From a virus, in the IMG/VR virus record IMGVR_UViG_3300007609_000005, positions 1 to 64,000 of that record: DNA of 64,000 nucleotides, one strand, 5' to 3'. The notes under the pieces were generated by a model that worked only from the letters and a program-made list of their open reading frames with translations, made no database searches and was not told the DNA's origin. This document shows positions 512 to 51,330 of this stretch, piece after piece (position 1 is the stretch's first letter; the number at the start of each line of letters is the position of its first letter). The position numbers and the translations under genes were made by a program.

Positions 512-961
512 ATGAAAGTGAAAACAGTACTACTTGATTTTGATGGTGTTATGGTTAAAAACCAACCTTGGAAAGTTATCCAAAGAGAAAGTGATGGGTT
601 TTACAGTTTTGACAAGAGTGCATTAAAACACCTTAAGCAAATACTAAATGAAACCAGAGCAATGATAACACTGATAACAACACACAAAACCAAATATACT
701 GATGAACAATGGGAAGAGATATTTAGAAGACGAGGAATTCAATGTAGAATAAAAAAGGCAAAAGAATTCGATTCAAGAATCGATGAAGTCGAAAATTGGT
801 ATAAAACAAGACCAACCGATCAATTTGTGATATTGGATGATGATAAGTCATTGAATGACCTAAGAAGTGAAATAAAAGAAAGGTTTGTTCTGATTGAATC
901 AGGAATCGGATTAACAAAAGAAAAAACAGAATTAGCAATAAAAATATTAAACGAAAAATGA
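512..961 (+). CDS. HAD-family phosphatase (RNA-repair-associated type)
   Basis: N-terminal LLDFDGV (DxDG) and FVILDDD motifs. Confidence 0.8.
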   Translation: MKVKTVLLDFDGVMVKNQPWKVIQRESDGFYSFDKSALKHLKQILNETRAMITLITTHKTKYTDEQWEEIFRRRGIQCRIKKAKEFDSRIDEVENWYKTRPTDQFVILDDDKSLNDLRSEIKERFVLIESGIGLTKEKTELAIKILNEK

Positions 962-2526
962 ATTTTATAGAAGAAAAAATAATTAACAAAAACAGAACGG
1001 AAAATATGGTACTTCGTTTTCCACCCGAACCAAATGGACACCTACACTTGGGTCATGCAAAATCACTATGTCTAAACTTTGGACTTGCAGAGAAATATGG
1101 TGGAAAGTGCATTTTGAGGTTTGACGATACCAACCCTGCAAAAGAATCAAATGAATATGTAAATTCAATGATCGAGGATGTTGAGTGGTTGGGTTTCACG
1201 CCTGACAAGATATCATACACATCCGATTACTTTGATGAGATATACGAATGTGCCTTAACATTGATAAGTAAAGGATTAGCATATGTCGACCACTCAACTT
1301 CTGAAGAAATTGCTGAGATGAAGGGAACACCAACAACACCAGGTAAGAACTCACCATATCGTAACAATTCCATAGATGAAAACACATATCTTTTCAAAAA
1401 GATGAGAAATGGGGGATACGGTGATAAAAAAGTTGTTCTCCGTGCAAAAATTGATATGGAAAGTCCCAATATGATATTGAGAGACCCCATCCTATACCGA
1501 ATGATCAATAAACCACATCATCGAACAGGAAATTATTGGTGTATCTACCCAATGTATGATATGGCACATCCCTTATGTGATTATTTCGAAGGTATTACAG
1601 ATTCCCTTTGTACATTGGAATTTGAAGTACATAGACCATTATATAATTGGATATTGAACAATTCAGACCTCGTGGGTAACTTACCAGAGGAAACTGAGTT
1701 TTCCCGATTGAATGTCAATGGACATGTTATGAGCAAAAGGATATTCAATGGTCTGATCGATGAAAATAAAGTAGAAGGATGGAATGACCCAAGGTTATTA
1801 ACTATCAAGGGCTTGAAGAAAAGGGGATTCACACCTGAATCCATAAAGGATTTCTGTGATCGGGTGGGTGTTTCAAAACGTGAGGCATCCATTGATGTAG
1901 AATTATTGGAAGAGTGTCTTAGAATTGAATTAAACAAGTCCTCTGACCGTGTTATGGGTGTATTCGACCCGATCAAACTAACCATTTCCAATTGGGAAAG
2001 TGGTACTGAAATGGTAACCATCGAAAATAACCCCGGAGACGAAACAAAGGGTACAAGAGAAGTTCCATTCTCAGGAAATATATTCATTGAACGAGATGAT
2101 TTCAGAGAAGAAGCCAACCGAAAATACCACAGACTTAAACTTGGACACGAAGTTAGGTTAAAGGGTGCATACATAATTAAGGCAGAGTCTGTTATCAAAG
2201 ATAAAAATGGCGATGTCACTGAGGTCATATGCACATATGACCCAGAAACTCGTTCAGGGAACTGCGATAGAAAAATCAAGGGAACCATCCATTGGGTTTC
2301 AAGTGATGACTGTATAAAAATTCCTACATATTCATACGGAACCCCATTCATTGATAATGAATTCAATGAGGATTCCGAATTGATAAACAACAACTCAGTA
2401 TTTGAACCAAGAGTTCTTGAAATAGAAAATGGAGTAAGTGTTCAAATGATGAGGAAGGGTTATTATGTCAAAGATAATGATCGATTTATAAAGACTGTGG
2501 ATCTGAGATCATCATTCAAAATATAA
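958..2526 (+). CDS. glnS: glutaminyl-tRNA synthetase
   Basis: RFPPEPNGHLHLGHAKS (HIGH), LRFDDTNP, WCIYPMYD, LCTLEF, VMSKR (KMSKS equivalent), KGTIHWVS. Confidence 0.96.
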   Translation: MNFIEEKIINKNRTENMVLRFPPEPNGHLHLGHAKSLCLNFGLAEKYGGKCILRFDDTNPAKESNEYVNSMIEDVEWLGFTPDKISYTSDYFDEIYECALTLISKGLAYVDHSTSEEIAEMKGTPTTPGKNSPYRNNSIDENTYLFKKMRNGGYGDKKVVLRAKIDMESPNMILRDPILYRMINKPHHRTGNYWCIYPMYDMAHPLCDYFEGITDSLCTLEFEVHRPLYNWILNNSDLVGNLPEETEFSRLNVNGHVMSKRIFNGLIDENKVEGWNDPRLLTIKGLKKRGFTPESIKDFCDRVGVSKREASIDVELLEECLRIELNKSSDRVMGVFDPIKLTISNWESGTEMVTIENNPGDETKGTREVPFSGNIFIERDDFREEANRKYHRLKLGHEVRLKGAYIIKAESVIKDKNGDVTEVICTYDPETRSGNCDRKIKGTIHWVSSDDCIKIPTYSYGTPFIDNEFNEDSELINNNSVFEPRVLEIENGVSVQMMRKGYYVKDNDRFIKTVDLRSSFKI

Positions 2527-2540
2527 ATCGTATATTTGTG

Positions 2541-2747
2541 AATGAGAGGTGGAAGAGATGGTATCGCTGGCAACAGAGGAACTTCATGACTGCCAAACCT
2601 AACGTGGGAGATTTAACCAATCGTTTGTACCACGGAAGCAGCAACTAAAACAGACCTAGTGTGTCGGTTTCACTATGATGGTCAGGTATAGGCAAAGATA
2701 AATGATACCTTAAAACAGAATCATGGGTAAGCTCACCACCTCTCATT
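2541..2747 (+). ncRNA. rnpB: minimal RNase P RNA
   Basis: P1 AATGAGAGGTGG/CCACCTCTCATT; P2 GGTATC/GATACC; P3 CTG-GCAA-CAG; GAGGAA-ACT[T]CATGA pairs with TCATGGGT after AAACAGAA (P4 with bulged U); AGATAAATGA segment; TAnnTTTG box at 2531. Confidence 0.85.
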
Positions 2748-3583: not shown

Positions 3584-3963
3584 TGGATATTATCTACATC
3601 ATATTTTTCATCTATATGGTAACTGAACTGTCATCGGTTTTCATATTAAACACAACATGGTACGAAAAATTTAAATTCATGGCACTGTGTAAAGAATTCC
3701 TAGATGAAAATTTGGATCAGGTATTCACATATAAACTCAATTTTCTTTTCGTTGAATCTAATGGCATATTTGGAACACATTATCAAAATGAACTGAGTAT
3801 TCACCTCAAAGGACATGAACCACTCTATATTACTATAGTTGTAGAAGATGGACAAGTAAATAATAAAAAAAAGATATTGGATTCCATAAAAGAACATTTC
3901 AACAAATCAAAAATAATTAAAGAGAATAGAAATATCACATTAAAAAACATATTAAATGATTGA
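3583..3963 (+). CDS. hypothetical membrane-anchored protein (C-tag)
   Basis: Hydrophobic N-terminus; ends RNITLKNILND. Confidence 0.65.
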   Translation: MDIIYIIFFIYMVTELSSVFILNTTWYEKFKFMALCKEFLDENLDQVFTYKLNFLFVESNGIFGTHYQNELSIHLKGHEPLYITIVVEDGQVNNKKKILDSIKEHFNKSKIIKENRNITLKNILND

Positions 3964-4477
3964 AAAAAGAGAAAATGTATATGAAGGATTTCTTACCGTT
4001 GAAGCACTGGATGTGAAAACTGAATCAGGTGCAACGGTTAGGAGAGAAGTTATGAAAAGACCTGATGCAGTGGCGGCACTCGTATATGACAGAACCAAGG
4101 AGAAATTCATATTTGTTGAACAATTCAGACCTGGTGTGGGTGATAAAATCACAGAAATTGTTGCAGGGACACTCGATAAACCCAACGAAGACCCAAAAAA
4201 AGCCATCAATAGAGAAATTCTCGAAGAAATAGGATATGGAGAAGGTATTATCACTGAGATAGGCAATTATTATGTATCACCTGGTGCTAACACCGAACAA
4301 GTAAGGATATATTGCATTGAAGTTTCTGATAAAATAGAGGCAGGTGGTGGTCTTCCAGAAGAACACGAGGAAATCAATATAATTGAAATGGATACGTATG
4401 AAATGACCAATTATGAATTCAAAGATATGAAGACTGTAGTTGCCGTAGAGTGGTATATTCAAAACAAACTATTATAA
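3956..4477 (+). CDS. NUDIX hydrolase (ADP-ribose pyrophosphatase-like)
   Basis: QFRP and Nudix box AGTLDKPNEDPKKAINREILEEIGY; SPG; EHEEI. Confidence 0.9.
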   Translation: MIEKRENVYEGFLTVEALDVKTESGATVRREVMKRPDAVAALVYDRTKEKFIFVEQFRPGVGDKITEIVAGTLDKPNEDPKKAINREILEEIGYGEGIITEIGNYYVSPGANTEQVRIYCIEVSDKIEAGGGLPEEHEEINIIEMDTYEMTNYEFKDMKTVVAVEWYIQNKLL

Positions 4478-4516
4478 ATCTCATATATAAAATAAAATTT
4501 GTAACTTTGTGGTATT

Positions 4517-5038
4517 ATGAACACACGAAGAATCATAAAATTATTGGAAGGTCTTGACAAACCTTGGGTAATGGTGTTGATCGGACCTCCATTAAGTGGG
4601 AAAACTACATTCATAAAAAATGTATTGACTGAACAAGAATTCACCCATGTATCATATGATAATATGATTATGGAATTGGACCCTATCCAAGATGGTGATT
4701 ATGAACGTGCATGGAAACAGACCAATTGGAAAATGGTCAACAAAGCATGTAAAAGCCTTATGAGAAAATGCAACGAGAACCGTGAAAATGCTGTTATTGA
4801 TTACACTAACATGAATTCTAAAAGACGACAGTCCAATCTTAGTTTTTTTGACAAAGAATATTATAAGATTGCAGTAAAGTTTCCTATTCTCGAAATGGAA
4901 GAATATAGAGAACGTAATAGAATTCGTATGAGAACCGAATCTAAGATAATATCAGATGATACTATCGAGTTTTTCCTAAAACAGTACAATCCCATCAACC
5001 CAAAGATGGAGAAGTTTGATAAAGTGATAGAACTTTAA
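4517..5038 (+). CDS. P-loop kinase (AAA_33 / polynucleotide kinase-like)
   Basis: GPPLSGKTT Walker A; VIDYTNMNSKRR. Confidence 0.8.
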   Translation: MNTRRIIKLLEGLDKPWVMVLIGPPLSGKTTFIKNVLTEQEFTHVSYDNMIMELDPIQDGDYERAWKQTNWKMVNKACKSLMRKCNENRENAVIDYTNMNSKRRQSNLSFFDKEYYKIAVKFPILEMEEYRERNRIRMRTESKIISDDTIEFFLKQYNPINPKMEKFDKVIEL

Positions 5039-20400: not shown

Positions 20401-20761
20401 TTAATAAATTTTCAATTTTTAATTTACGTTGATATTGATCATTAACATTCTTAAACATTTTTGAGTTAACCTCAACAAAATACCGATTAAGAAAAGTAGG
20501 ACTTACCAATTTTTCATCACCATACATAATATAATGTAGTTGATGTTCTATTCCAAACCATTCAACTATTATAGATGCCATCCCAAAACAATCACCTTCA
20601 AAAACGTCATAATCCTCATAATTCTTCCCATTATCCGGGTCTTGTAATGGAATTGTAAAACGTCCACTAATACCCAAATCAACACATTTGAACCATACAT
20701 ATTTATGTGGATCAAATCTATCGTCTTTATGCAACAATTTGAAAAATTCCTCACCCATCAT
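20390..20761 (-). CDS. hypothetical protein (C-tag)
   Basis: Ends RKLKIENLLNEE. Confidence 0.6.
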   Translation of the reverse strand: MMGEEFFKLLHKDDRFDPHKYVWFKCVDLGISGRFTIPLQDPDNGKNYEDYDVFEGDCFGMASIIVEWFGIEHQLHYIMYGDEKLVSPTFLNRYFVEVNSKMFKNVNDQYQRKLKIENLLNEE

Positions 20762-21935
20762 ATTCCATTTTTGCTTGTTCTAACCACTTCTGTGCATCCA
20801 TAAGTCTACGGGTCTGCTTCTCATATAATACTTTTATCATATCTACGAGATCTTTATCATTTATAACACCGATTGCAAGAGAGAATAGTTTATGTTTTGA
20901 ATGTTTCAAAGAAAAATCTTTCTTATCACCATCATATTCACTATCAAGAAAATCCATAACTTCCTTATATAACTTCTTTATCTTGAAATTCAATAATTCA
21001 TTTATTTCATTTACTGTCATTTTAACATAAACAGAAGTTTCATCCTCACCCAGTAAAGCAAGTGCATCGTCTATGGTTTCCTCAAATATCATCTTGAATA
21101 TGAGATTTTCCCTATTCAATTCCTCAGTGAAAAGGCCGTGTAAGTCGATATACCATTTTGTTTTCAACTTCACCATTTTTCCGTTCTCGAATTGAATAAC
21201 CCATCCTTCTTTATCTTCAAGGATATCTTTCAATTCAATCAATTTATCCAAAGTGTTATCCTCTGTCACAACGACAGAAACACCATTCAATATGTCTTGA
21301 AAATCATCTATATCAAGATATTCCCCTGTTCGGTTATCTCTTAACTGAAGTAATATAAGGTCAGTGTTCGAATAAGGAACGACAATCTTATTATCAGGTG
21401 ATACATATTCAAATACCGGGACTATATTTTTGGAAAGGAAGTAATCAACAACCCTTCTTATATTATCGTCTGTATCATATACTCTTTGAGAACCAATTGC
21501 CTGATCACTTATGAATGATGCCTTACTCTTTGCCCGAACACTACCATCCGGTAATTTGACAAAAGATGCAATTGAACCATCTTCTTTATTGAATATTCGT
21601 TCGATCTTTAAATCTTTAATAACTGAGTATAATGAACAAGGTGTTTGGTCTATATTGAAGAACTTATTCAATAACAGATACCTATCGTATAGAGTTCCAT
21701 CGTTATTGAACACATATGTAAGTCCTCTTAATTCATAAGCCTTTACACCACTATCATCACCCAATGGGTTTTCAAAATCCTTCCACTGTGCTAATCGGTA
21801 ATTGAATATAGATACATCAAACCCATTGACCACATGTTTGGTTTCATTGAATATAAGGTTATCATTTGCATCACACATTGCCCTACACTCATCATAGGTC
21901 GGTAAATAATATGTATGTGTTTGTCGATTCTCCAT
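20751..21935 (-). CDS. T4 Rnl1-like RNA ligase
   Basis: ELRGL, KFFN, KEDGS (motif I), FEYVSPDNKIVV, EGWV, KLKTKWY. Confidence 0.9.
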   Translation of the reverse strand: MENRQTHTYYLPTYDECRAMCDANDNLIFNETKHVVNGFDVSIFNYRLAQWKDFENPLGDDSGVKAYELRGLTYVFNNDGTLYDRYLLLNKFFNIDQTPCSLYSVIKDLKIERIFNKEDGSIASFVKLPDGSVRAKSKASFISDQAIGSQRVYDTDDNIRRVVDYFLSKNIVPVFEYVSPDNKIVVPYSNTDLILLQLRDNRTGEYLDIDDFQDILNGVSVVVTEDNTLDKLIELKDILEDKEGWVIQFENGKMVKLKTKWYIDLHGLFTEELNRENLIFKMIFEETIDDALALLGEDETSVYVKMTVNEINELLNFKIKKLYKEVMDFLDSEYDGDKKDFSLKHSKHKLFSLAIGVINDKDLVDMIKVLYEKQTRRLMDAQKWLEQAKMEYDG

Positions 21936-31161: not shown

Positions 31162-31595
31162 TATTCAAGTATTTCTTTTAATTTTCTATCTCTCCTTAAT
31201 TTAAATCCAAATTGTTCAATTTCACTCTGACTGACCAATGATGTTCGAGATTCACATCCCAATATTCTTAACTTCAAATCTAATTTTGGAGGAGTTCCAA
31301 AATTATTAGCAGCCAACCACCTATCTATACTTAAAGAAATCAAATTTACCCTATATATATCTGCTGTTCCGGCAGTTTCACTGGTTGAATCAAGTGATAT
31401 ATTTTCGTTGTTAATAACAACGAACATTCCATCACGGTCATTTCCTCCTCGGAAATTATCTGATACACCATTTATACTCAGAATATCTTCATCTATAACA
31501 TAAGAGGCATATAAAATTTGATAAGTCACATCACAATTAACCACATGAATTTCTTGGGCGGAATACGAACTATTACCAAAATTCATTGAAATCAT
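31161..31595 (-). CDS. hypothetical protein (C-tag)
   Basis: Ends RDRKLKEILE. Confidence 0.6.
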   Translation of the reverse strand: MISMNFGNSSYSAQEIHVVNCDVTYQILYASYVIDEDILSINGVSDNFRGGNDRDGMFVVINNENISLDSTSETAGTADIYRVNLISLSIDRWLAANNFGTPPKLDLKLRILGCESRTSLVSQSEIEQFGFKLRRDRKLKEILE

Positions 31596-33442
31596 TTCAT
31601 CATCTCTTTTTTTCTATGTGATGAATCTTTACCGAACCATACATCCAATGACTTTTTAGAAGAATTAGTTGCTTCAATTTTAACCAATTTTGGATTATTT
31701 ATGATTTCATTATATTCATCATCCACCAATGCAGCCAAACCCTTTTTATACTTTATTTCCCAATTACCAGGTTTTACCTTTTTCAACCAAGACTGATATT
31801 GTTCCTGAGTATAAAACAAAGTCTTATCCTTTCTCCCCTTTCGTTTTGCAACGACAATAGGTGTTTCTACTTTGTATACCATATTCATCTCAAATAGTTT
31901 AGGCCAATATCGATAGAAGAAATTTATCAGTTGGGCGGCAATGGAGTTACCATCCACATCTGCATCGACATATAATAATATCCTTCCATATCTAAGATCT
32001 TTTAAATTAGGTTCGTGACCCAATTTAAGACCAATAGCAGCCATAAGATTGACCACCTCCTTATTTGATACAAACTTATCATTTGATATATCAGTAACAT
32101 TCATAAATTTACCCTTCAATGGAAATGCACCCATTAATTCAGGTGTTCTGTATTTTCGGAAAGCACTAGTGGCTGAATCACCCTCAAATATTCCCAATTG
32201 ACACTTCCACCGGGTCTTTCCTTTGGCATCGATCAACTTATCAACTTTTTTACTCGATAAAGACTTATTCAATTTTCTTTTTTTCCTCATCTCATCGGCA
32301 AGTTCTTTCTGTTTTACCCAATCAAGTATAGAACTTACAATCTCAGACTTAAGTACTTGTTGAATGAATTTTTTAGATACTGTGTGAGTTGTTTTAAACT
32401 CCTTCTGTTCAGTTATCAATTTATCCTTTGTCTGTGATTGGAAAAATGGATTAATGACCGTACAGTTAAGGTAAAGTGCCATATGATTCTTTATATTGGA
32501 AGGTTTCACATCAACCTTGTGTTTTTTCTGAAAATATTCCCTCAATTCCTTCACAACTTGGTCTATTATGAAATCAACATGTGTTCCACCATCACTTGTT
32601 TCAGTAGTATTCACAAAACTTATATGTTCAAACCCATTTTCGGATGGTGATAATGCAATTGTCCAATCTTTTGATGACTCACTTATATAATCTGTTGTAA
32701 ACATCTCTATATAATCTTCAAATTTCTTGAAATCTATTTTCTTGCCATTGAAAGTAACATTCAATTTAGGATTACATGCTGCCACCTCATAACATCTCTT
32801 CTCAATCATTGCAAAATGGTTGAGATCTATTTTTCTCATACCAAATTGTTTAAAATCCGGTACGTATGATATCTCAGTATGCTTCCTTGTGAATTTTGTT
32901 ATTTTCGCCTTTGTTCTTTTCTTCATATTACTATTGAAAGTTTGAACAAATTTCTTTTTACCATCACTACTCGATACTTTGAATTCTGTTGAAAATATGT
33001 TAGTTAATTTTGCACCTAACCCATTCAATCCAGCAACATCCCTATCCTCTGCATCATCATAATTTGAACCAGAACGTAGAGAGCCGAATATCATCTCAGG
33101 TACATACTTCTTCTCAACCTTATGCATCACAATAGGTATCCCACCATTATCTTTAATGGTTATACGCCCAGTATCTCTATCTACCTTCACATCCAACTTA
33201 TTCAACCTCCCATTCCTCTTATGTTCATCTACCGAATTGGTTATTACCTCATCAAATATCTTTAAGAAAGATGGTATATAAGTAATATCCCTTTTGGACA
33301 TTTTATTGCCATTTTTAACCAACCATTTGGTTTCTGTATGTTTCTTGTTTGAACCCACATATGTCTGTGGCCTTTTCAATACGTGGTCGATCTCATCCAG
33401 TGATTGAAATTCTTCTTCGATTGTCTTCTTTCTCCTTGCCAT
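31592..33442 (-). CDS. type IIA DNA topoisomerase, ATPase/TOPRIM subunit (T4 gp39+60-like)
   Basis: HVLKRP..YVGS, EVITNSVDE, DNGGIP, GLNGLGAKL, EGDSA, PLKGK, DADVDG, KGL; likely start MARRKK. Confidence 0.94.
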   Translation of the reverse strand: MARRKKTIEEEFQSLDEIDHVLKRPQTYVGSNKKHTETKWLVKNGNKMSKRDITYIPSFLKIFDEVITNSVDEHKRNGRLNKLDVKVDRDTGRITIKDNGGIPIVMHKVEKKYVPEMIFGSLRSGSNYDDAEDRDVAGLNGLGAKLTNIFSTEFKVSSSDGKKKFVQTFNSNMKKRTKAKITKFTRKHTEISYVPDFKQFGMRKIDLNHFAMIEKRCYEVAACNPKLNVTFNGKKIDFKKFEDYIEMFTTDYISESSKDWTIALSPSENGFEHISFVNTTETSDGGTHVDFIIDQVVKELREYFQKKHKVDVKPSNIKNHMALYLNCTVINPFFQSQTKDKLITEQKEFKTTHTVSKKFIQQVLKSEIVSSILDWVKQKELADEMRKKRKLNKSLSSKKVDKLIDAKGKTRWKCQLGIFEGDSATSAFRKYRTPELMGAFPLKGKFMNVTDISNDKFVSNKEVVNLMAAIGLKLGHEPNLKDLRYGRILLYVDADVDGNSIAAQLINFFYRYWPKLFEMNMVYKVETPIVVAKRKGRKDKTLFYTQEQYQSWLKKVKPGNWEIKYKKGLAALVDDEYNEIINNPKLVKIEATNSSKKSLDVWFGKDSSHRKKEMMK

Positions 33443-33521
33443 CCATATTAACTTGATTTGATTTATATATACAATCAATGAGTCTTTCACGAATTATTAG
33501 GAATTCAAAATCAATATAATA

Positions 33522-33975: not shown

Positions 33976-35322
33976 ATGCATATGGAAAAGAAAAATATCG
34001 AAAACTTCCTCAATGAAGAATATAAAGAATTTGCAATGTATTCCCTGGAATCAAGGGCAATTGCATCAATGATCGATGGATTTAAACCGGTTCAAAGAAA
34101 AATCATCCACATATCATCCAATATATGGAAAACTGGAAATGAAAAAACACTTAGAGTGTTTCAATTGTCCGGTAAAGTTGCAAGTGATTCATTCTACCAC
34201 CATGGAGATAAATCACTGAATGATGCCATTATCAATATGGCACAAAGTTTTAAGAACAATGCACCATTATTGGACGAAGATGGACAATTTGGATCACTTA
34301 GATCCCCCGAATCAGGTGCACCACGATATATAGGGACTCGTTTAAATTCGAGTTTTAGAAAAATATACAAAGATTTCAACTTACTTGAAAATCAAATAGA
34401 AGAAGGAGAAATGATAGAACCTAAATTCCTTCTACCTATAATCCCAATGCTACTTATAAATGGTGGCGGTGGTATTGCAGTAGGATTCCGATCCGAAATA
34501 CTCAATAGAGATGTTAAAACAGTAGCAAGGGAATGTCTCAGATTCTTAAAATCCAATAGGGTCAATAAAATACCACCCCACTTAAATGGATTCAAAGGAA
34601 CTTATAGACAAGATGATGACAATCCCAATAAGTGGTGGGTAAAGGGTGTTTTCGAACGTGTTAATACGACAACAGTTAAAATAACAGAACTCCCACCATC
34701 TATAACATATCAGAATTATGAAGACCACCTCGAAAAATTGATTGAAAACGATGCAATAAAATCATATGAAGATAATTGCCGAGATGATGTTAATTATGTT
34801 ATCAAAATGAGTAGAAAAGACCTGAAAGAAATAACTGATGATAAATTGGTAAAGTTACTGAAGTTGGAAGAAACTCAATATGAATATCTAAATGTTTTGG
34901 ATGAAAATGGGAAACTGAAAACATTCACAGATGTTAAAGATATACTCAAATATTTTGTGAAATTCAGATTGAAATGGTATGATATCCGTAAGAAAACAAT
35001 CCTTGAAAATATGGAGAAAGACCTTAAGGTAATGACCAATAAGGCCAAATTCATATCCCTCATAATAAAAGGCGATATACTTATAAATAACATCAAAAAG
35101 ACAGACATTGAAAAATCAATTGCCAAATATAAATTAGATAAGGTATTGGGTTCTTACAATTACCTTTTTAAGATACCAATCCATAACCTCACCAAAGAAA
35201 ACTATGAAAAGATACAGAATGATATGAAAGCATCCAAGAAAGACATATCATATCTCAAAAAGGTGAAACCCAAGGATATGTATATCGATGAATTGGAAGA
35301 TTTTATAAAGAAATGGAAATAA
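33976..35322 (+). CDS. type IIA DNA topoisomerase, breakage-reunion subunit (T4 gp52-like)
   Basis: RAI...IDGFKPVQRK, YHHGD.SL, GQFGS, APRYI (catalytic Tyr), LLINGGGGIAVGF. Confidence 0.94.
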   Translation: MHMEKKNIENFLNEEYKEFAMYSLESRAIASMIDGFKPVQRKIIHISSNIWKTGNEKTLRVFQLSGKVASDSFYHHGDKSLNDAIINMAQSFKNNAPLLDEDGQFGSLRSPESGAPRYIGTRLNSSFRKIYKDFNLLENQIEEGEMIEPKFLLPIIPMLLINGGGGIAVGFRSEILNRDVKTVARECLRFLKSNRVNKIPPHLNGFKGTYRQDDDNPNKWWVKGVFERVNTTTVKITELPPSITYQNYEDHLEKLIENDAIKSYEDNCRDDVNYVIKMSRKDLKEITDDKLVKLLKLEETQYEYLNVLDENGKLKTFTDVKDILKYFVKFRLKWYDIRKKTILENMEKDLKVMTNKAKFISLIIKGDILINNIKKTDIEKSIAKYKLDKVLGSYNYLFKIPIHNLTKENYEKIQNDMKASKKDISYLKKVKPKDMYIDELEDFIKKWK

Positions 35323-39288: not shown

Positions 39289-40968
39289 CTATACACACAA
39301 ATTATATTTTAACTTACCACAATCCCATATACGTTCAATTTTATTACTTTGCATATATGATTTTTCAGATTCTTTTTCGGAAATACTCTCTAATTTATCC
39401 CTTTGAAAACTTCTTTTATTGACCCTACTACCATTAACAATATATTTATAGTCCGGACCACTACTTTTCACCCTCTCAAATCCAAGTTTTTCATATAGAT
39501 TGCCTTCACTCCAACACCTATCTGCATAACTGATTATACGGGTTGCATTATATTCCCTTATAAACCATTTCAACAATTTCCCGGCACCACCAATAACATT
39601 CGTGTTCAATTTGTTACAGAACCTCGAAAGATTCCATTCACCATCATCCATCTTCACCCTCCCCTCGAATTTATTGAATGTCATTACTGCCACAAGTTCA
39701 TCATTGTATAAAAGACCAATATAAACAGAACTTCTATCATTCCCTTGTATATGATTTTCCTTTAAAAACTCAGAACACCGTCTAGTACTTAATTTAACAA
39801 CTTCACATTTCCGTGCCCCTATTTTCGTATCACTTATAGATAATATACTTGATATCTGACTCTTTATGATTGAACCTCTTTCAACCCAATCATCTTCCCA
39901 TATATGTATGATACGTATACCTTTATCATTGAAATATGATGTTTTATCAATGTGGTAGTTTTTATACTTATATTTCTCAGAATGCCAATAAAGCCCATTG
40001 AATTCAAAGCCTATTTTCAACTCCGGTAAGTAAATATCAATTTCCAAACCATCTCGATAAGACCTCACCACTTCACCATTATATATTGAATTGATGTATT
40101 CATATAACTCACCCTCCTTAATAGAAGTGGAATCCGATATTGGATTACAAACAGTACATAGGTTTACATTTGATTTTTTCCGATTATAGTACATATATGA
40201 TGATATCTCAAAATTATGATCACAACCTTTATCACAATTGAATTCTGAAATATTGTCACCAACATATCCAATGTAATTTTCATCATTTGATAAATGGACA
40301 CTATGACCTCTTATAGATTCAGAAGAATATGGCGAAGTTGAACCATATCTATCTAACATTGTTTTCTTAATTTTTTCTCTAACACCTGGGTCAGATAAAC
40401 TGGACCAATATCCCGTCTTATCATAATATGTTTTGGATATCCTATCATATATTTCTGGAACCTTTGATGGGTGATCCACCCCATACTTCTCCAAAAATGA
40501 ATTTCTTATCATTTCTTTATCATGGAATGGATTTTTAAATCCAAACTTCTCCATATTGGTTTTGGACTTACGTTCTTTATATTCATCCGTTTTAGAATAA
40601 TGATCCACCCCATATCTATCTAAGTTGGTTTCCTTAACTCGGTCTTTATATTGATTGGTCTTCGAATAATGATCCACCCCATATTTTTGAGAATTAGTTA
40701 CTTTATTCTTAACACTAGAACATTTAACACAAGTGTAAATAGGCAGTTCCTCACAAGAATTCACATTCTTGTTATAAGACTGATATGTTATGATATTCTC
40801 AGAAAAACAAACATCACAAGACACTTTAACCTTTTTATTACTCTTTTTCTGAAGATGTATAATATCAATATCTATCACATCGCCACATTCTATACCAACA
40901 TAATATTCACTGAAATGATCAATATTCCTCTTACTTATCTTAACCTTTATTGATTTATCTACTAACAT
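39289..40968 (-). CDS. homing-endonuclease-like protein (zinc ribbons, KYGVDH repeats, PD-(D/E)xK/Vsr-like domain)
   Basis: CDVC/CVKC, repeated YGVDH(Y/P)SK, LEIDIYLPELKIGFEFNGLYWH, IHIWEDDW, C-terminal GARKC...SRFC...SYAD domain. Confidence 0.75.
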   Translation of the reverse strand: MLVDKSIKVKISKRNIDHFSEYYVGIECGDVIDIDIIHLQKKSNKKVKVSCDVCFSENIITYQSYNKNVNSCEELPIYTCVKCSSVKNKVTNSQKYGVDHYSKTNQYKDRVKETNLDRYGVDHYSKTDEYKERKSKTNMEKFGFKNPFHDKEMIRNSFLEKYGVDHPSKVPEIYDRISKTYYDKTGYWSSLSDPGVREKIKKTMLDRYGSTSPYSSESIRGHSVHLSNDENYIGYVGDNISEFNCDKGCDHNFEISSYMYYNRKKSNVNLCTVCNPISDSTSIKEGELYEYINSIYNGEVVRSYRDGLEIDIYLPELKIGFEFNGLYWHSEKYKYKNYHIDKTSYFNDKGIRIIHIWEDDWVERGSIIKSQISSILSISDTKIGARKCEVVKLSTRRCSEFLKENHIQGNDRSSVYIGLLYNDELVAVMTFNKFEGRVKMDDGEWNLSRFCNKLNTNVIGGAGKLLKWFIREYNATRIISYADRCWSEGNLYEKLGFERVKSSGPDYKYIVNGSRVNKRSFQRDKLESISEKESEKSYMQSNKIERIWDCGKLKYNLCV

Positions 40969-41077: not shown

Positions 41078-42652
41078 ATGATTATAAACAAGAACATACA
41101 CGAAAAACTCCTTACGTCAATCCAAGAAATGTTGATCGATACGAAAGTTAATCTACCATACTATGGTGAATTTAACTTATTGGTGAACTTTCACGAGTCC
41201 AATAACCTTCCAACATGTGGTGTAAATGTTACATCAAAGGGGATGAACTTCTACTACAATCCGAAGTTCCTACAACACATGTCCCAAAAAGAAGTGAACT
41301 TCGTAACACTACACGAAGATTTCCACTTACTTTTCAATCACCCACGTAGAACAATCACGGGTCAATATAATCACAAATTGTCGAATATTGCACAAGATAT
41401 GATTATCAACTACATCATTTGGGACGATATCTCTCACAATTTTGTAGAAATTCCAAAGGATGAGAATGGTAAGAATATGGCACTGTTCCCACCAAAGGAA
41501 TACAAAGGTAAATTGATCTATGAAGAAGTCTATACTTGGTTGAAAGACGAAAAAGAAAAGTGGGACGAAGAACAGAAGAAAAACTCCGGTGATGGTGATT
41601 GCCAAACATGTAACGGCTCTGGTCAAAAACAAGACCAAAATGATCAAGGTCAAAGTGATGGTCAAGGTCAAGACCAAGGCCAAGGTCAAGGTGATGGTCA
41701 AGGTGATGGTCAAGGTGATGGAGAAGGTCAAGACCAAGGTCAAGGTCAAGGTGATGGTCAAGGTGATGGAGAAGGTCAAGGTCAAGGTGATGGTCAAGGT
41801 GATGGACACAATCACGGTCAATCAGGCGAACCTTGCCCAGATTGTAATGGCACGGGTAACCAAAATGGTATGGATTCATCTGGTAAGCCATCTTATGGTC
41901 CATATGGACAAAACCCATCCGGAGATGGTTCTATTGATACATGGTCAAAAGAACAGATCTTTAAGGACATGGATCAGAATGATGGACAATATATGGATTC
42001 CCACATCACCGATGATGTTCCTGAGGACATGAGAGAAACAATGGTACGAGATGCCATGGAAAGATTGGCTGCACGAGGACTTGCATCAGGTAATATTGAA
42101 ACAACTCTGAATAAACTTCAGAAGAAACGAAAAGATTACTTGAAAGAAATCAAACGTTCAATCTCAAATGAGATCTTCGGTACTAAAAAACAAAAGACTA
42201 TTACTCGAATCAATCGTAGAGGTATCAAAGGTCTTAAAGGTAACCGAAAGACCAAGACAACAATCAACGTTATTCTTGATACATCCGGTTCTATGGGTGG
42301 TCAAGGGACATTTGAAAGAGTTCTGTCGTATGTTTATAGGAACGACATTGAAATAAACTTCATCCAAGGTGATACTGATGTGAAGTGGGTTGAGAAGTTC
42401 AAGAAGAAACGTCAATTGGAAACAATGAAAATCCGAGGTCTTGGTGGCACTGTGCTCCAACCTAGCGTGGATTACTGTGTCGAACACTATAATGAGTACA
42501 ATACTTGTATACTTACGGATGGTTACACAGATACTCTTGACCTCTCTAAGTTGAATGGACGAGTTCTAATGATTTCTGTTGGTGTTGAAGTACCAACTAG
42601 CCGACCACCAAAGAAAGGTGTGAAGCAAATCGTACTTGAAGAAACTCACTAA
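41078..42652 (+). CDS. DUF2201-type metallopeptidase + VWA domain protein
   Basis: HEDFH (HExxH), NIAQDMIIN, MIDAS DTSGSM, GGT, LTDG. Confidence 0.85.
   Translation: MIINKNIHEKLLTSIQEMLIDTKVNLPYYGEFNLLVNFHESNNLPTCGVNVTSKGMNFYYNPKFLQHMSQKEVNFVTLHEDFHLLFNHPRRTITGQYNHKLSNIAQDMIINYIIWDDISHNFVEIPKDENGKNMALFPPKEYKGKLIYEEVYTWLKDEKEKWDEEQKKNSGDGDCQTCNGSGQKQDQNDQGQSDGQGQDQGQGQGDGQGDGQGDGEGQDQGQGQGDGQGDGEGQGQGDGQGDGHNHGQSGEPCPDCNGTGNQNGMDSSGKPSYGPYGQNPSGDGSIDTWSKEQIFKDMDQNDGQYMDSHITDDVPEDMRETMVRDAMERLAARGLASGNIETTLNKLQKKRKDYLKEIKRSISNEIFGTKKQKTITRINRRGIKGLKGNRKTKTTINVILDTSGSMGGQGTFERVLSYVYRNDIEINFIQGDTDVKWVEKFKKKRQLETMKIRGLGGTVLQPSVDYCVEHYNEYNTCILTDGYTDTLDLSKLNGRVLMISVGVEVPTSRPPKKGVKQIVLEETH
41641..41806 (+). 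repeat. intragenic GQGQ/GDGQ low-complexity tandem repeat
   Basis: Multiple GGTCAA and GGTGATGGTCAA units. Confidence 0.9.
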
Positions 42653-50109: not shown

Positions 50110-51330
50110 ATGATACATAATTTTAAAAAATACAATGAAGCCCAAGAAGATACAGTTGGGAAACTTCCCTTGGAGGCAGAAGGTCTATATGATATGATGC
50201 CCGATTCCATAAAGGAGATATCCAAAGTATTCAGTGAATCAGGGAAAAGCCTTTACCTTGTGGGTGGTGCAATCAGAGATTATATCAAAGGTCAAGAACC
50301 AAAAGATTATGATGTTGCAACTGATGCAATGCCAGATGAAGTATTGGATATCCTTAAAGGGTATAAGACACAACTACAAGGAGAAGCTTTTGGAATCGTA
50401 GTGGTTTACACAGATGATCAACCAGAAGGAATGGAAATTGCCACCTTCCGCCAAGATATAAGCAAAGGCAGAAACCCAAAGGTAAAACTTGGTGTAACGA
50501 TTGAAGAAGATGTGGAAAGGCGTGACCTAACCTATAATGCAATGTTCTATCACATTGAGAAAAAGGAGATATATGACCTTGTTGGTGGTATGAAGGACTT
50601 AGAAGATGGCATAACACGAATGGTTGGAGATCCTTTCGAAAGAATAGAAGAAGATTCCCTTAGAATTTTGAGGGCTTTCCGGTTTGCATCCAGATACAAT
50701 CACATATTGGATGAACGTTCAATCGAGGCATTTGAAAAGAGAAATAATTTAGAGAACATCGATCCAGATACAGGGGAATTGAAAAGAATATCTTCCGAAC
50801 GTATTTATGAAGAAATGCAAAAGGCATGGAAACAATCACCTGACTATAACTATTATTTACAATTCTTCAATGAATTCAATATGTGGTCAGAGGTCTTTCC
50901 AGGTGCAAATATAAATGAGAATTTGATTGAAACCGATAGTTTCAGAGTATGCCTCGCCAATCTTTTCAGAAATGAGAATCCAAATGGATTGGCGAATAAA
51001 CTGATAAGTAAATATAAGATAGATGGTGGTACAGCCGACACCATCGAATTTTTAATTGAATTCAACAATATGACTGAAGAAAATGCCATTGAAGTTCAGA
51101 AAAAATTGAAAAAGAAAAATCTTGATGTGGAAAATATCAAGGAATCGGATATACTTGAATGGATACGAGTTGAAAATCTTGGTAACCTACATAAGAAATT
51201 TCTTCAATATAAACCAAAGAATTGGAGTGACGAATTGAAGAAACAAGGGTTTAAACCCGGTCCGGAATTCGGAAAAGAGATAAGAAAACGTAGTATAGAC
51301 GATTTTAAGACTTTCATTTCTAATAAATAA
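50110..51330 (+). CDS. cca: class II CCA tRNA nucleotidyltransferase (N-tag)
   Basis: LVGGAIRD, KDYDVAT, EIATFR, RRDLTYNA, EDSLRILRAFRF, SSERI..E. Confidence 0.88.
   Translation: MIHNFKKYNEAQEDTVGKLPLEAEGLYDMMPDSIKEISKVFSESGKSLYLVGGAIRDYIKGQEPKDYDVATDAMPDEVLDILKGYKTQLQGEAFGIVVVYTDDQPEGMEIATFRQDISKGRNPKVKLGVTIEEDVERRDLTYNAMFYHIEKKEIYDLVGGMKDLEDGITRMVGDPFERIEEDSLRILRAFRFASRYNHILDERSIEAFEKRNNLENIDPDTGELKRISSERIYEEMQKAWKQSPDYNYYLQFFNEFNMWSEVFPGANINENLIETDSFRVCLANLFRNENPNGLANKLISKYKIDGGTADTIEFLIEFNNMTEENAIEVQKKLKKKNLDVENIKESDILEWIRVENLGNLHKKFLQYKPKNWSDELKKQGFKPGPEFGKEIRKRSIDDFKTFISNK

What the first reader, a model, noticed from the sequence alone, without database searches (positions are those of the whole stretch)
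2531..2747. Very small (207 nt) phage RNase P RNA with a fully covaried P4
Seen: a 12-bp P1, P2, tetraloop P3, P5 TGCC/GGCA and inner helices ACCT/AGGT, CGTGG/CCACG, GACC/GGTC and TAGTG/CACTA, with conserved-region-like segments GAGGAA, AGCAGCAACTAAAA, AGATAAATGA and AAACAGAA. P4 is ACT[T]CATGA/TCATGGGT instead of the typical bacterial AAG[U]CCGGG/CCCGGCUU, yet pairing and the bulged U are retained. There is no room for P15-P18. Established: typical bacterial P RNAs are about 350-400 nt. Inference: a minimal ribozyme for phage tRNA 5' maturation, placed right after glnS, which standard covariance models might miss.
Basis: partly seen in the sequence, partly recalled or inferred. Interest (0 to 1): 0.8.

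Follow-up and report, generated by a model that had tools for sequence, protein, structure and literature searches.

The report
Phage-encoded miniature RNase P RNA
Just after a phage glutaminyl-tRNA synthetase gene lies a 207-base cut-down gene for RNase P RNA, the ribozyme that trims new tRNAs; it keeps the catalytic half, has lost almost all of the half that reads tRNA shape, and belongs to a large family in big phages that I could not find described in print.

Summary
Window 2541-2747 (+) is a real, conserved structured RNA gene derived from RNase P RNA. Rfam misses it at gathering scores. In E-value mode it matches RNaseP_arch end to end at 34.8 bits.

I collected 48 distinct relatives from large phage contigs. 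On these the fold is 91.0% paired, against 35-45% for slid controls. P4 (97.6%) and the P6 pseudoknot (89.9%) covary although neither was in my model.

The RNA has P1-P6, P15-P17 and an L15 GGU. P18 is absent and the specificity domain is one 32-nt hairpin.

Relatives occur in the 635-735 kb megaphages and in a cultured Stenotrophomonas phage. 17 of 41 loci have a tRNA gene within 500 nt.

Some huge phages also encode the protein subunit RnpA; 46 of 46 other carriers do not.

Catalysis and expression are untested. Eight literature searches found no description. This scan noted the same family earlier on other DNA.

The parts
2541..2747 (+). Whole miniature RNase P RNA gene (207 nt)
   Evidence: R1 196.1 bits, model 1-212. 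RF00373 34.8 bits, model 1-288, at 2551-2737.
2541..2557 (+). P1 5' strand. Outer 2541-2552 pairs with 2736-2747. Inner GAG 2555-2557 pairs with CTC 2732-2734.
   Evidence: Sequence. 15 of 15 pairs covary; 81.7% of cells paired on A3.
2560..2565 (+). P2 5' strand GGTATC; pairs with GATACC at 2704-2709
   Evidence: 97.9% paired; 4 of 6 pairs change on both sides.
2567..2576 (+). P3 hairpin CTG-GCAA-CAG
   Evidence: 98.6% paired. Its length varies among relatives.
2576..2580 (+). J3/4 (CR-I), GAGGA, leading into P4
   Evidence: Aligned to the GAGGAAAGUCC consensus of the Rfam RNase P models. Its invariance in A3 is partly imposed by my search pattern. Among the 6 members found by other routes, 3 have GAGGAA and 3 have GAGAAA.
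2581..2589 (+). P4 5' strand ACT[T]CATGA, with bulged T at 2584
   Evidence: 97.6% paired and 7 of 8 pairs covary, although P4 was not in the model. The bulged U is kept in 47 of 48 sequences.
2590..2593 (+). P5 5' strand CTGC; pairs with GCAG at 2638-2641
   Evidence: 100% paired; 4 of 4 pairs covary.
2595..2599 (+). P6 pseudoknot 5' strand AAACC; pairs with GGTTT at 2666-2670 in the P17 loop
   Evidence: 89.9% paired and 5 of 5 pairs covary. P6 was not in the model.
2603..2634 (+). Stub that replaces the specificity domain. Outer stem CGTGG/CCACG, inner stem GATT/AATC, and an asymmetric internal loop.
   Evidence: Outer stem 96.1% paired, inner stem 86.4%. Loop residues G67, A69, G70 and A89 are each kept in 46 of 46 sequences with a letter there. 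In the Rfam alignments it takes the place of about 117-140 model positions.
2642..2647 (+). J5/15 (CAA) and P15 5' strand (CTA; pairs with TAG at 2689-2691)
   Evidence: A103 is kept in 44 of 48 and A104 in 47 of 48. P15 is 97.9% paired and 3 of 3 pairs covary.
2653..2683 (+). P16 (GACC/GGTC) and P17 (TAGTG/CACTA) hairpin
   Evidence: P16 is 93.0% paired and P17 81.2%. All 9 pairs change on both sides.
2685..2687 (+). GGT on the 3' side of the P15 internal loop (L15)
   Evidence: G, G and T are each kept in 47 of 48 sequences, and none was part of my search pattern. The Rfam class A consensus has GGGUa at the same place. The role in binding the tRNA 3' CCA is recalled knowledge; the RCCA-RPR interaction is named in PMC11143913.
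2696..2705 (+). CR-IV-like AGATAAATGA, running into the P2 3' strand (2704-2709)
   Evidence: Aligned to AGAugAAUG of RF00010. The same words occur in a Bacteroidales rnpB. Invariance is partly imposed by my pattern.
2714..2728 (+). CR-V AACAGAA (2714-2720) and P4 3' strand TCATGGGT (2721-2728)
   Evidence: Aligned to ACAGAA plus the P4 3' strand of the Rfam models.
2732..2747 (+). P1 3' strand
   Evidence: See the P1 5' strand.
958..2526 (+). glnS (glutaminyl-tRNA synthetase), directly upstream; the likely shared transcript
   Evidence: PF00749 at 324.9 bits, plus PF03950 and PF20974. No promoter-like or terminator-like site lies between it and the RNA.

Best explanation
Window 2541-2747 (+) encodes a phage-borne RNase P RNA reduced to its catalytic domain.

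Structure.
- It keeps P1, P2, P3, P4 with the bulged U, P5, the P6 pseudoknot and P15-P16-P17.
- It keeps an L15 GGU and the CR-I, CR-IV and CR-V strands.
- It has no P18.
- One 32-nt hairpin stands where the specificity domain (P7-P14) would be.

Proposed mechanism (inferred).
- It is made during infection, probably as the tail of the glnS transcript.
- It folds into the RNase P active site.
- It binds an RnpA-type protein. In this phage that is most likely the host's. A few giant relatives encode their own.
- It cuts the 5' leaders from pre-tRNAs. Substrates would be held mainly through the acceptor end (leader, cleavage site, 3' CCA) and not through the T-loop/D-loop elbow.

This gives the phage its own tRNA-maturation capacity, alongside its glnS, CCA-adding enzyme and RNA-repair genes.

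Shown here: homology, fold, conservation, phage residence, and linkage to tRNA and RnpA genes. Inferred: transcription, protein partner and cleavage.
For: Homology.
- RF00373 matches end to end at 34.8 bits, E 2.7e-8.
- Relatives match RF00010 at up to 71.9 bits. In that alignment only the S-domain and P18 positions are deleted.

Fold.
- On 39 MAFFT-aligned sequences, 85.7% of cells are paired against 35-43% when partners are slid. The covariation score is 0.692 against 0.10-0.17, and 0 of 500 shuffles reach it.
- On 48 distinct model-aligned sequences, 91.0% are paired against 35-45%, with covariation 0.742 against 0.08-0.13.
- P4 (97.6%) and P6 (89.9%) covary although they were left out of model R1.

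Functional residues not imposed by my pattern.
- Bulged U: 47 of 48.
- L15 G, G and U: 47 of 48 each.
- J5/15 A103 and A104: 44 and 47 of 48.

Independent members. Nine were not in the training set and scored 127-186 bits: the LR745206.1 copy (L173), L135, L145, L206, L251, L278, L289, L295 and L312. L313 scored 146, L294 90.7 and L314 81.

Phage residence.
- 47 of 61 pattern matches in IMG/VR are strong R1 hits.
- 12 carrier records are at least 90% complete, spanning 82-494 kb.
- Copies occur in LR745206.1, LR756502.1 and LR756501.1 (635-735 kb) and in the cultured Stenotrophomonas phage DLP_6.

Link to tRNA.
- 17 of 41 loci have a tRNA gene within 500 nt, in arrays of up to 28.
- In DLP_6 the RNA fills the unannotated gap before tRNA-Arg.

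Link to the protein subunit.
- RnpA (PF00825, 49-52 bits, with the KKFKRAVDRNR(V/I)KRLMRE motif) is encoded in 2 of 4 GenBank carrier phages.
- 3 of 6 IMG/VR contigs found through that protein also carry the RNA, including 2 of 2 that are at least 90% complete.

Feasibility. [quoted passage not shown]

Window context.
- glnS, a CCA-adding enzyme, RNA ligase and a PNK-like kinase are present.
- The contig's one tRNA gene encodes its CCA.
Against: - No transcript or cleavage was tested. The only run found for this DNA is a DNA run.
- The record holding the window has only one tRNA gene and no RnpA in 132 kb, at 52% estimated completeness. Here the RNA is not in a tRNA array.
- 0 of 46 IMG/VR carrier records encode RnpA, so for most carriers the partner is an assumption.
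- Loss of P18 cut the E. coli ribozyme's rate more than 3000-fold in vitro (PMC11143913, passage seen).
- Only 109 of 291 tRNA genes next to family members encode CCA, and some phages have almost none. The conserved GGU therefore cannot always read an encoded CCA.
- Some relatives change core words: GAGAAA for GAGGAA, and GCAAAA or ACAGGA for ACAGAA.
- The invariance of GAGGAA, AGAnAAATGA and AACAGAA in my alignments is imposed by the search pattern.
- P4 pairing was used to pick the training set.
- The MFE z-score is only -1.10.
Confidence: 0.72

Rival explanations
1. Decoy. The RNA keeps the protein-binding catalytic-domain fold but serves mainly to soak up host RnpA, or to compete for substrates. 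That would shut down host tRNA maturation without itself processing tRNAs.
For: - 0 of 46 IMG/VR carriers encode RnpA, so the RNA must compete for the host protein.
- Loss of the S-domain and of P18 should weaken catalysis (PMC11143913, passages seen).
- A poxvirus RNase P-like RNA was discussed as a possible decoy (PMC3001073, passage seen).
Against: - A decoy needs no intact active site, yet the bulged U, the J5/15 adenosines and the L15 GGU are kept in 44-47 of 48 sequences.
- P4 and P6 are kept by compensatory change.
- Some giant phages add their own RnpA, which is the opposite of sequestration.
- Placement inside phage tRNA arrays suits processing.
Confidence: 0.1
2. Retargeted nuclease. 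It is an active RNase P-type ribozyme whose real substrates are not tRNAs. Without elbow recognition it could cut phage mRNAs, host RNAs or tRNA-like structures instead.
For: - The S-domain, which reads the tRNA elbow, is gone.
- Bacterial RNase P is known to cut non-tRNA substrates, and pre-4.5S RNA does not need an intact S-domain (PMC11143913, passages seen).
- In the window the RNA is not next to tRNA genes.
Against: - 17 of 41 loci lie within 500 nt of tRNA genes.
- The CCA-reading GGU is conserved.
- S-domain-less bacterial constructs still cleave pre-tRNA (PMC11143913).
Confidence: 0.1
3. A decaying remnant of a captured host rnpB gene, with no function.
For: - It is below Rfam gathering scores.
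- About 40% of a normal RNase P RNA is missing.
Against: - 48 distinct sequences keep the same reduced architecture with 56 of 62 pairs changing on both sides.
- The same stub, with invariant loop residues, recurs in phages from 82 kb to 735 kb.
Confidence: 0.03
4. A cellular RNase P RNA of an unusual bacterium, such as a reduced-genome lineage, on contigs wrongly called viral.
For: - 4 strong hits lie in genome bins labelled as bacteria.
- Diverged RNase P RNAs are known in CPR bacteria (PMC8172020, passages seen).
Against: - Those 4 contigs are 0.5-13 kb pieces of metagenome bins.
- 3 of the 4 bins also hold a full-length class A RNase P RNA at 226-351 bits on another contig.
- Carriers include complete phage genomes with terminal repeats and a cultured phage.
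- The window has phage genes.
Confidence: 0.03

Closest known systems
Bacterial class A RNase P RNA (Rfam RF00010; rnpB/M1 RNA type)
   Same: Same P1-P2-P3-P4 core with the bulged U, P5, the P6 pseudoknot, and P15-P16-P17 with GGU in L15. Same CR-I, CR-IV and CR-V words. A Bacteroidales rnpB shares the 3' AGAUAAAUGA...AAAACAGAA stretch.
   Different: - 203-258 nt for the 41 members measured, against 340-420 nt (PMC4919922).
- About 140 S-domain model positions are replaced by about 50 nt, and the 24 P18 positions by none.
- Scores are 49-72 bits against a gathering score of 100.
- R1 gives real rnpB at most 31 bits.
- It is encoded by phages.
Archaeal type T (also written type P) minimal RNase P RNA of Pyrobaculum and Thermoproteaceae
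   Same: A natural RNase P RNA that keeps the catalytic domain and lacks nearly the whole specificity domain, and is still active (PMC4919922 and PMC7191817, passages seen). The primary paper, PMC3012483, is not held.
   Different: - Type T is cellular, archaeal and works with several archaeal proteins.
- The phage RNA is bacterial-type: it has the L15 GGU and P6, and RnpA in some carriers.
- I could not see the RF02357 score, because the tool shows only the best family of a clan.
Archaeal type A RNase P RNA (Rfam RF00373)
   Same: It is the best Rfam match for the window, probably because this type also lacks P18 while keeping P6 and P15-P17 (PMC4919922).
   Different: It scores only 34.8 bits against a gathering score of 84. 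The S-domain is missing. The carriers are bacteriophages, with bacterial RnpA where a protein subunit is found.
Engineered S-domain-less (catalytic-domain-only) bacterial RNase P RNAs
   Same: The same part of the molecule. These are reported active on pre-tRNA with and without protein, with weaker binding (PMC11143913, passage seen).
   Different: Those are laboratory deletions. This is a natural, conserved gene family with its own conserved stub hairpin.
Orthopoxvirus (camelpox) RNase P-like RNA
   Same: A virus-encoded RNA with some likeness to bacterial and archaeal RNase P RNA (PMC3001073, passage seen).
   Different: That RNA showed no pre-tRNA processing in vitro and comes from an animal virus. 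The phage family keeps the full catalytic-core signature and is linked to tRNA and RnpA genes.

Membership tests
RNase P RNA (clan CL00002) | P4 helix with a bulged U, flanked by CR-I (GAGGAA...) and CR-V (ACAGAA...) | tested here: met
   Window: 8 pairs plus bulged T2584. Family: 97.6% paired, 7 of 8 pairs covary, and U is kept in 47 of 48.
RNase P RNA (clan CL00002) | P1-P2-P3 stack, with P2 crossing P4 | tested here: met
   P1 81.7%, P2 97.9% and P3 98.6% paired. My first bracket string failed until P4 was written as a crossing helix.
RNase P RNA (clan CL00002) | Score at or above an Rfam gathering threshold | tested here: not met
   Window: 34.8 bits against 84. Relatives: 0 of 18 over threshold, best 71.9 against 100.
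RNase P RNA (clan CL00002) | Specificity domain with CR-II and CR-III (P10-P12) | tested here: not met
   It is replaced by one 32-nt hairpin, and the matching model positions are deleted. The recognised type T also lacks it (PMC7191817).
RNase P RNA (clan CL00002) | Cleaves pre-tRNA 5' leaders | not testable with these tools
   No assay was possible, and no RNA run was found.
Bacterial class A (RF00010) | P15 internal loop with GGU, plus P16-P17 and the P6 pseudoknot | tested here: met
   GGU is kept in 47 of 48. P15 is 97.9%, P16 93.0%, P17 81.2% and P6 89.9% paired, and all 17 of their pairs covary.
Bacterial class A (RF00010) | P18 hairpin | tested here: not met
   Its 24 model positions align to 0 nt in a relative. 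The window has 4 nt between P15 and AGATAAATGA. The LR756501.1 copy has a 29-nt insert at this place.
Bacterial class A (RF00010) | Works with an RnpA protein | tested here: inconclusive
   RnpA is present in 2 of 4 GenBank carrier phages. 3 of 6 RnpA-bearing IMG/VR contigs carry the RNA. There is none in the window's record or in 46 of 46 other carriers. Binding was not tested.
Archaeal type T (RF02357) | Archaeal (Thermoproteaceae) host and archaeal protein partners | tested here: not met
   Carriers are bacteriophages, including a Stenotrophomonas phage. Where a protein subunit is present it is bacterial RnpA.

The most novel reading that the evidence does not exclude
Large phages carry their own RNase P. 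It is a ribozyme that evolved once within phages by shedding the tRNA-elbow reader, and in the largest genomes it comes with its own RnpA.

As an elbow-independent enzyme it would mature the phage's densely packed and sometimes unusual tRNA transcripts. It would also keep tRNA supply running when host RNase P is shut off or host defences attack tRNAs.

In the window it would be one part of a self-contained tRNA supply and repair kit, together with glnS, the CCA-adding enzyme, RNA ligase and the kinase.
Probability: 0.3. Interest if true: 0.92.

Novelty: new variant of a known kind. Interest (0 to 1): 0.85.

Why it matters
RNase P RNA is one of the few universal ribozymes and is regarded as a cellular housekeeping gene.

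- **Extends phage autonomy.** A conserved, naturally minimised, bacterial-type version in phages would add tRNA 5' processing to the list of translation functions that phages carry.
- **A natural experiment.** The family shows how little of RNase P is needed. The catalytic domain of about 200 nt is the size of the smallest known cellular form.
- **A gap in annotation.** Standard models miss all 19 loci tested.
- **A testable system.** The copy in a cultured Stenotrophomonas phage can be studied at the bench.
- **A full enzyme in some phages.** RnpA genes in about 480-640 kb phages suggest that some phages encode the whole holoenzyme.

Tried and rejected
**Searches and reads that led nowhere**
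- An exact two-anchor pattern taken from the window found nothing in IMG/VR.
- The window's weak snoRNA and pntA matches inside glnS are chance-level and were dropped.
- MFE folding does not single out the region or the strand, and it cannot model P4 or P6.
- My first structure string nested P4 wrongly, so it gave false low pairing for P2 and P4. This was corrected.
- A sigma-70 promoter and terminator scan found nothing specific around the RNA.
- A kink-turn reading of the stub's internal loop was considered by eye and rejected, because there is no G-A step next to the outer stem.
- RNA expression: no RNA holder was listed, so I did not lay reads.

**Rows dropped**
- Duplicates: L082, L140, L149, L157, L164, L167 and L170.
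- Dropped by eye as non-members: L027, L056 and L058.
- L141 was left out of A2 because it is cut at the 5' end.
- L153 (24.7 bits, doubtful) remains in A3.
- 13 of the 61 pattern loci gave no R1 match.
- The record of L131 was not held.

**Literature**
- Eight searches found no paper describing a phage-encoded RNase P RNA.
- The main text of PMC7162821 has 0 occurrences of "RNase P", "ribonuclease P" and "rnpA".
- Its supplementary tables, and those of the other papers, were closed and could list RnpA or such RNAs.
- Only the held open-access library was searched.
- E. coli residue numbers and the CCA-binding role of GGU are recalled knowledge.
Full report
**What is there.** The window belongs to an IMG/VR virus record of 132,459 bases, estimated 52% complete.
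- Phage-type genes in the window: topoisomerase II subunits (31592-33490 minus strand, 33976-35322), an RNA ligase of PHROG 562 (20751-21935 minus strand), two homing/HNH endonucleases, and a tRNA nucleotidyltransferase (50110-51330).
- A complete glnS occupies 958-2526.
- Fourteen bases after its stop codon a 207-nt stretch, 2541-2747, can be drawn as an RNase P RNA.
- Rfam at gathering thresholds reports only one tRNA in the 64 kb.
- In E-value mode the archaeal RNase P model RF00373 matches 2551-2737 on the plus strand end to end, at 34.8 bits against a gathering score of 84, E 2.7e-8. Only the specificity-domain positions are skipped.
- Energy folding is not informative: z = -1.10 on the plus strand and -2.14 on the minus strand.

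**Relatives.**
- glnS resembles that of two uncultured 635-642 kb phages. One of them, LR756502.1, has an RF00373 match of 32.4 bits far from its glnS. The pairwise alignment already showed compensatory changes in P1, P2, P4 and P5.
- A motif pattern (GAGGAA, gap, AGAnAAATGA, gap, AACAGAA) found 61 places in IMG/VR.
- I scored eight P4 pairs at each of 172 pattern matches. The result was bimodal: 39 had 8 of 8 and 8 had 7 of 8, while the rest peaked at 2-3.
- After removing 7 duplicates, 3 obvious non-members and one truncated copy, 39 sequences of 203-236 nt were aligned as A2.

**The fold.** On A2, which was not fitted to any structure:
- My structure is paired in 85.7% of cells, against 35-43% when the partners are slid.
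- The covariation score is 0.692 against 0.10-0.17, and no shuffle of 500 reaches it.

A covariance model, R1, was built from the nested helices only. It realigned 55 matches, 48 of them distinct, as alignment A3.
- 91.0% are paired against 35-45%; covariation is 0.742 against 0.08-0.13; 56 of 62 pairs change on both sides.
- The two crossing helices were not in the model, so they are fair tests. P4 is 97.6% paired with 7 of 8 pairs covarying. The P6 pseudoknot is 89.9% paired with 5 of 5 covarying.
- P5 is 100% paired.
- Caveat: P4 pairing was my selection filter for the training set. The other helices were not.

**Anatomy in the window** (index = position minus 2540):

| Element | Index |
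|---|---|
| P1 | 1-12/196-207 and 15-17/192-194 |
| P2 | 20-25/164-169 |
| P3 | 27-29/34-36, GCAA loop |
| P4 | 41-43 and 45-49 with 181-188; U44 bulged |
| P5 | 50-53/98-101 |
| P6 | 55-59/126-130 |
| Stub hairpin | 63-94 |
| J5/15 | 102-104 |
| P15 | 105-107/149-151 |
| P16 | 113-116/140-143 |
| P17 | 117-121/131-135 |
| GGU | 145-147 |
| CR-IV | 156-165 |
| CR-V | 174-180 |

- In a relative aligned to the class A model RF00010, about 140 specificity-domain positions are replaced by about 50 nt, and the 24 P18 positions by none.
- So this is a class-A-like catalytic domain without P18 and with a stub in place of P7-P14.
- The stub is not a random linker. Both of its stems covary, and loop residues G67, A69, G70 and A89 are each kept in 46 of 46 sequences. 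Its role is unknown.

- Right: the identity, the size, P1, P2, P3, P4, three inner helices, the conserved segments, the position after glnS, and the prediction that standard models miss it.
- Wrong: P5 as TGCC/GGCA (45-48% paired) and ACCT/AGGT. The latter is 81% paired only because an invariant GGU can wobble-pair, and 367 of 500 shuffles reach its covariation score.
- Also wrong: "no room for P15-P18". P15-P17 and P6 are present.

**Conservation of functional residues.** The invariance of GAGGAA, AGAnAAATGA and AACAGAA in A2 and A3 is imposed by the pattern.
- Residues outside the pattern are informative: bulged U 47 of 48; L15 G, G and U 47 of 48 each; J5/15 adenosines 44 and 47 of 48; A189 48 of 48.
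- Six members were found by other routes: by model, by blastn, or through RnpA. They keep the fold and the GGU, but the core words vary. Three have GAGAAA for GAGGAA, two have ACAGGA, and two have GCAAAA for ACAGAA.

**Where it lives.**
- 47 of the 61 IMG/VR pattern matches are strong R1 hits of 76-203 bits.
- R1 also finds copies in LR745206.1 (151.5 bits), LR756502.1 (166.8) and LR756501.1, the 735-kb record (126.7, with a 29-nt insert at the P18 site).
- It finds one at 90.7 bits in the cultured Stenotrophomonas phage vB_SmaS-DLP_6 (168,489 bp). There it fills an unannotated gap between a hypothetical gene and tRNA-Arg, inside a tRNA array.
- Twelve carrier records are at least 90% complete, spanning 82-494 kb, several with terminal repeats.
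Only 4 are strong R1 hits, and all lie on 0.5-13 kb contigs of metagenome bins.
- Three of those four bins also hold a normal class A RNase P RNA at 226-351 bits on another contig.
- R1 gives genuine rnpB at most 31 bits, and only over the 3' words.

**Links to function.**
- 17 of 41 loci have a tRNA gene within 500 nt, some inside arrays of 24-28 tRNAs.
- The window's record is an exception. It has one tRNA gene, Met, whose CCA is encoded.
- It lies in a neighbourhood rich in tRNA and RNA-repair functions: glnS, a HAD_SAK_2 domain, NUDIX and a PNK-like kinase, plus RNA ligase and the CCA-adding enzyme further on.
- The protein subunit RnpA (PF00825) is absent from the window's record and from 46 of 46 IMG/VR carriers.
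- It is present in LR745206.1 and LR756502.1 at 49-52 bits, as roughly 100-residue proteins with the arginine-rich RNR-type motif.
- Six further viral contigs encode relatives of that protein. Three of them, including both that are at least 90% complete (476 and 483 kb), carry the miniature RNA.
- So most carriers must borrow the host protein or act alone, and a few giants may encode the whole enzyme.
- Published work supports feasibility. Bacterial catalytic domains lacking the S-domain cleave pre-tRNA with and without protein, though they bind it less well. Deleting P18 alone slowed the E. coli ribozyme more than 3000-fold (PMC11143913, passages seen).
- CCA is encoded in 109 of 291 neighbouring tRNA genes, nearly all or nearly none depending on the phage. 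The conserved GGU therefore does not track encoded CCA.

**Comparison and novelty.**
- The closest kinds are bacterial class A RNase P RNA (same catalytic domain) and the archaeal type T of Pyrobaculum (same loss of the S-domain; PMC4919922 and PMC7191817, passages seen).
- It fails Rfam thresholds and lacks two class A features, the S-domain and P18. I therefore call it a new variant of RNase P RNA and not a member of an existing Rfam family.
- The only virus-encoded RNase P-like RNA I found in print is the inactive orthopoxvirus one (PMC3001073, passage seen).
- Eight full-text searches found no phage RNase P RNA. The huge-phage paper does not mention RNase P in its main text. Supplements were closed.
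- Earlier notes of this scan describe the same family on five other genomes. One of them led me to look for the cultured phage and the largest genomes, which I confirmed myself.

**Verdict.**
- A real, conserved, phage-borne RNase P RNA derivative: about 0.95.
- Acts as a tRNA 5' maturation ribozyme with an RnpA-type protein: about 0.7.
- Expression and catalysis remain untested.

Noticed in passing
LR756502.1 525189-525473 (L296:1498-1803) and LR745206.1 76444-76752 (L297:1501-1812); also L306-L311: Megaphages encode an RnpA-like RNase P protein (PF00825, 49-52 bits) with an RNR-type motif. Six more viral contigs have relatives, and three of those also carry the miniature RNA. I did not find this mentioned in the main text of the huge-phage paper.
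   Followed up: partly
window 512-961, 3956-5038, 20751-21935 (-), 50110-51330: The phage has a tRNA supply and RNA-repair gene set: a HAD_SAK_2 domain protein, NUDIX, a PNK-like P-loop kinase, a T4-type RNA ligase and a CCA-adding enzyme, besides glnS.
   Followed up: partly
L295:1966-2204 (LR756501.1, 735 kb): This copy has a 29-nt insert between P15 and CR-IV, at the place of P18. It can form two small hairpins, one with a GAAA loop. It also has ACAGGA in place of ACAGAA.
   Followed up: no
29 member loci: Encoded 3' CCA in neighbouring phage tRNA genes is all-or-none by phage. Examples: 24 of 26, 13 of 13 and 15 of 15, against 1 of 28, 0 of 9 and 0 of 12. The L15 GGU of the RNA is conserved in both groups.
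   Followed up: partly
L136:1261-1644 (-): A phage tmRNA gene (RF00023, 97.4 bits) lies about 1.2 kb from the miniature RNase P RNA on a 150-kb viral contig.
   Followed up: no
L243:2183-2330 (Paceibacterota bin, 364-kb contig): A weak R1 match (23.6 bits, 148 nt) in a CPR bacterium. It could be part of that lineage's diverged RNase P RNA, or chance.
   Followed up: no
window 39289-40968 (-) and 41078-42652 (+): Two large homing/HNH endonuclease genes lie side by side (PHROG 3339, 559 and 1314).
   Followed up: no
window 2522-2529: TATAAATC sits right before the RNA, overlapping the glnS stop codon. It resembles the T4 late-promoter word as I recall it. I did not test it, and it is not seen upstream of the relatives I looked at.
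   Followed up: no
L173, L313: Two megaphage copies replace the near-universal ACAGAA with GCAAAA, and GAGGAA with GAGAAA, while keeping P4 pairing. Both phages also encode RnpA.
   Followed up: no
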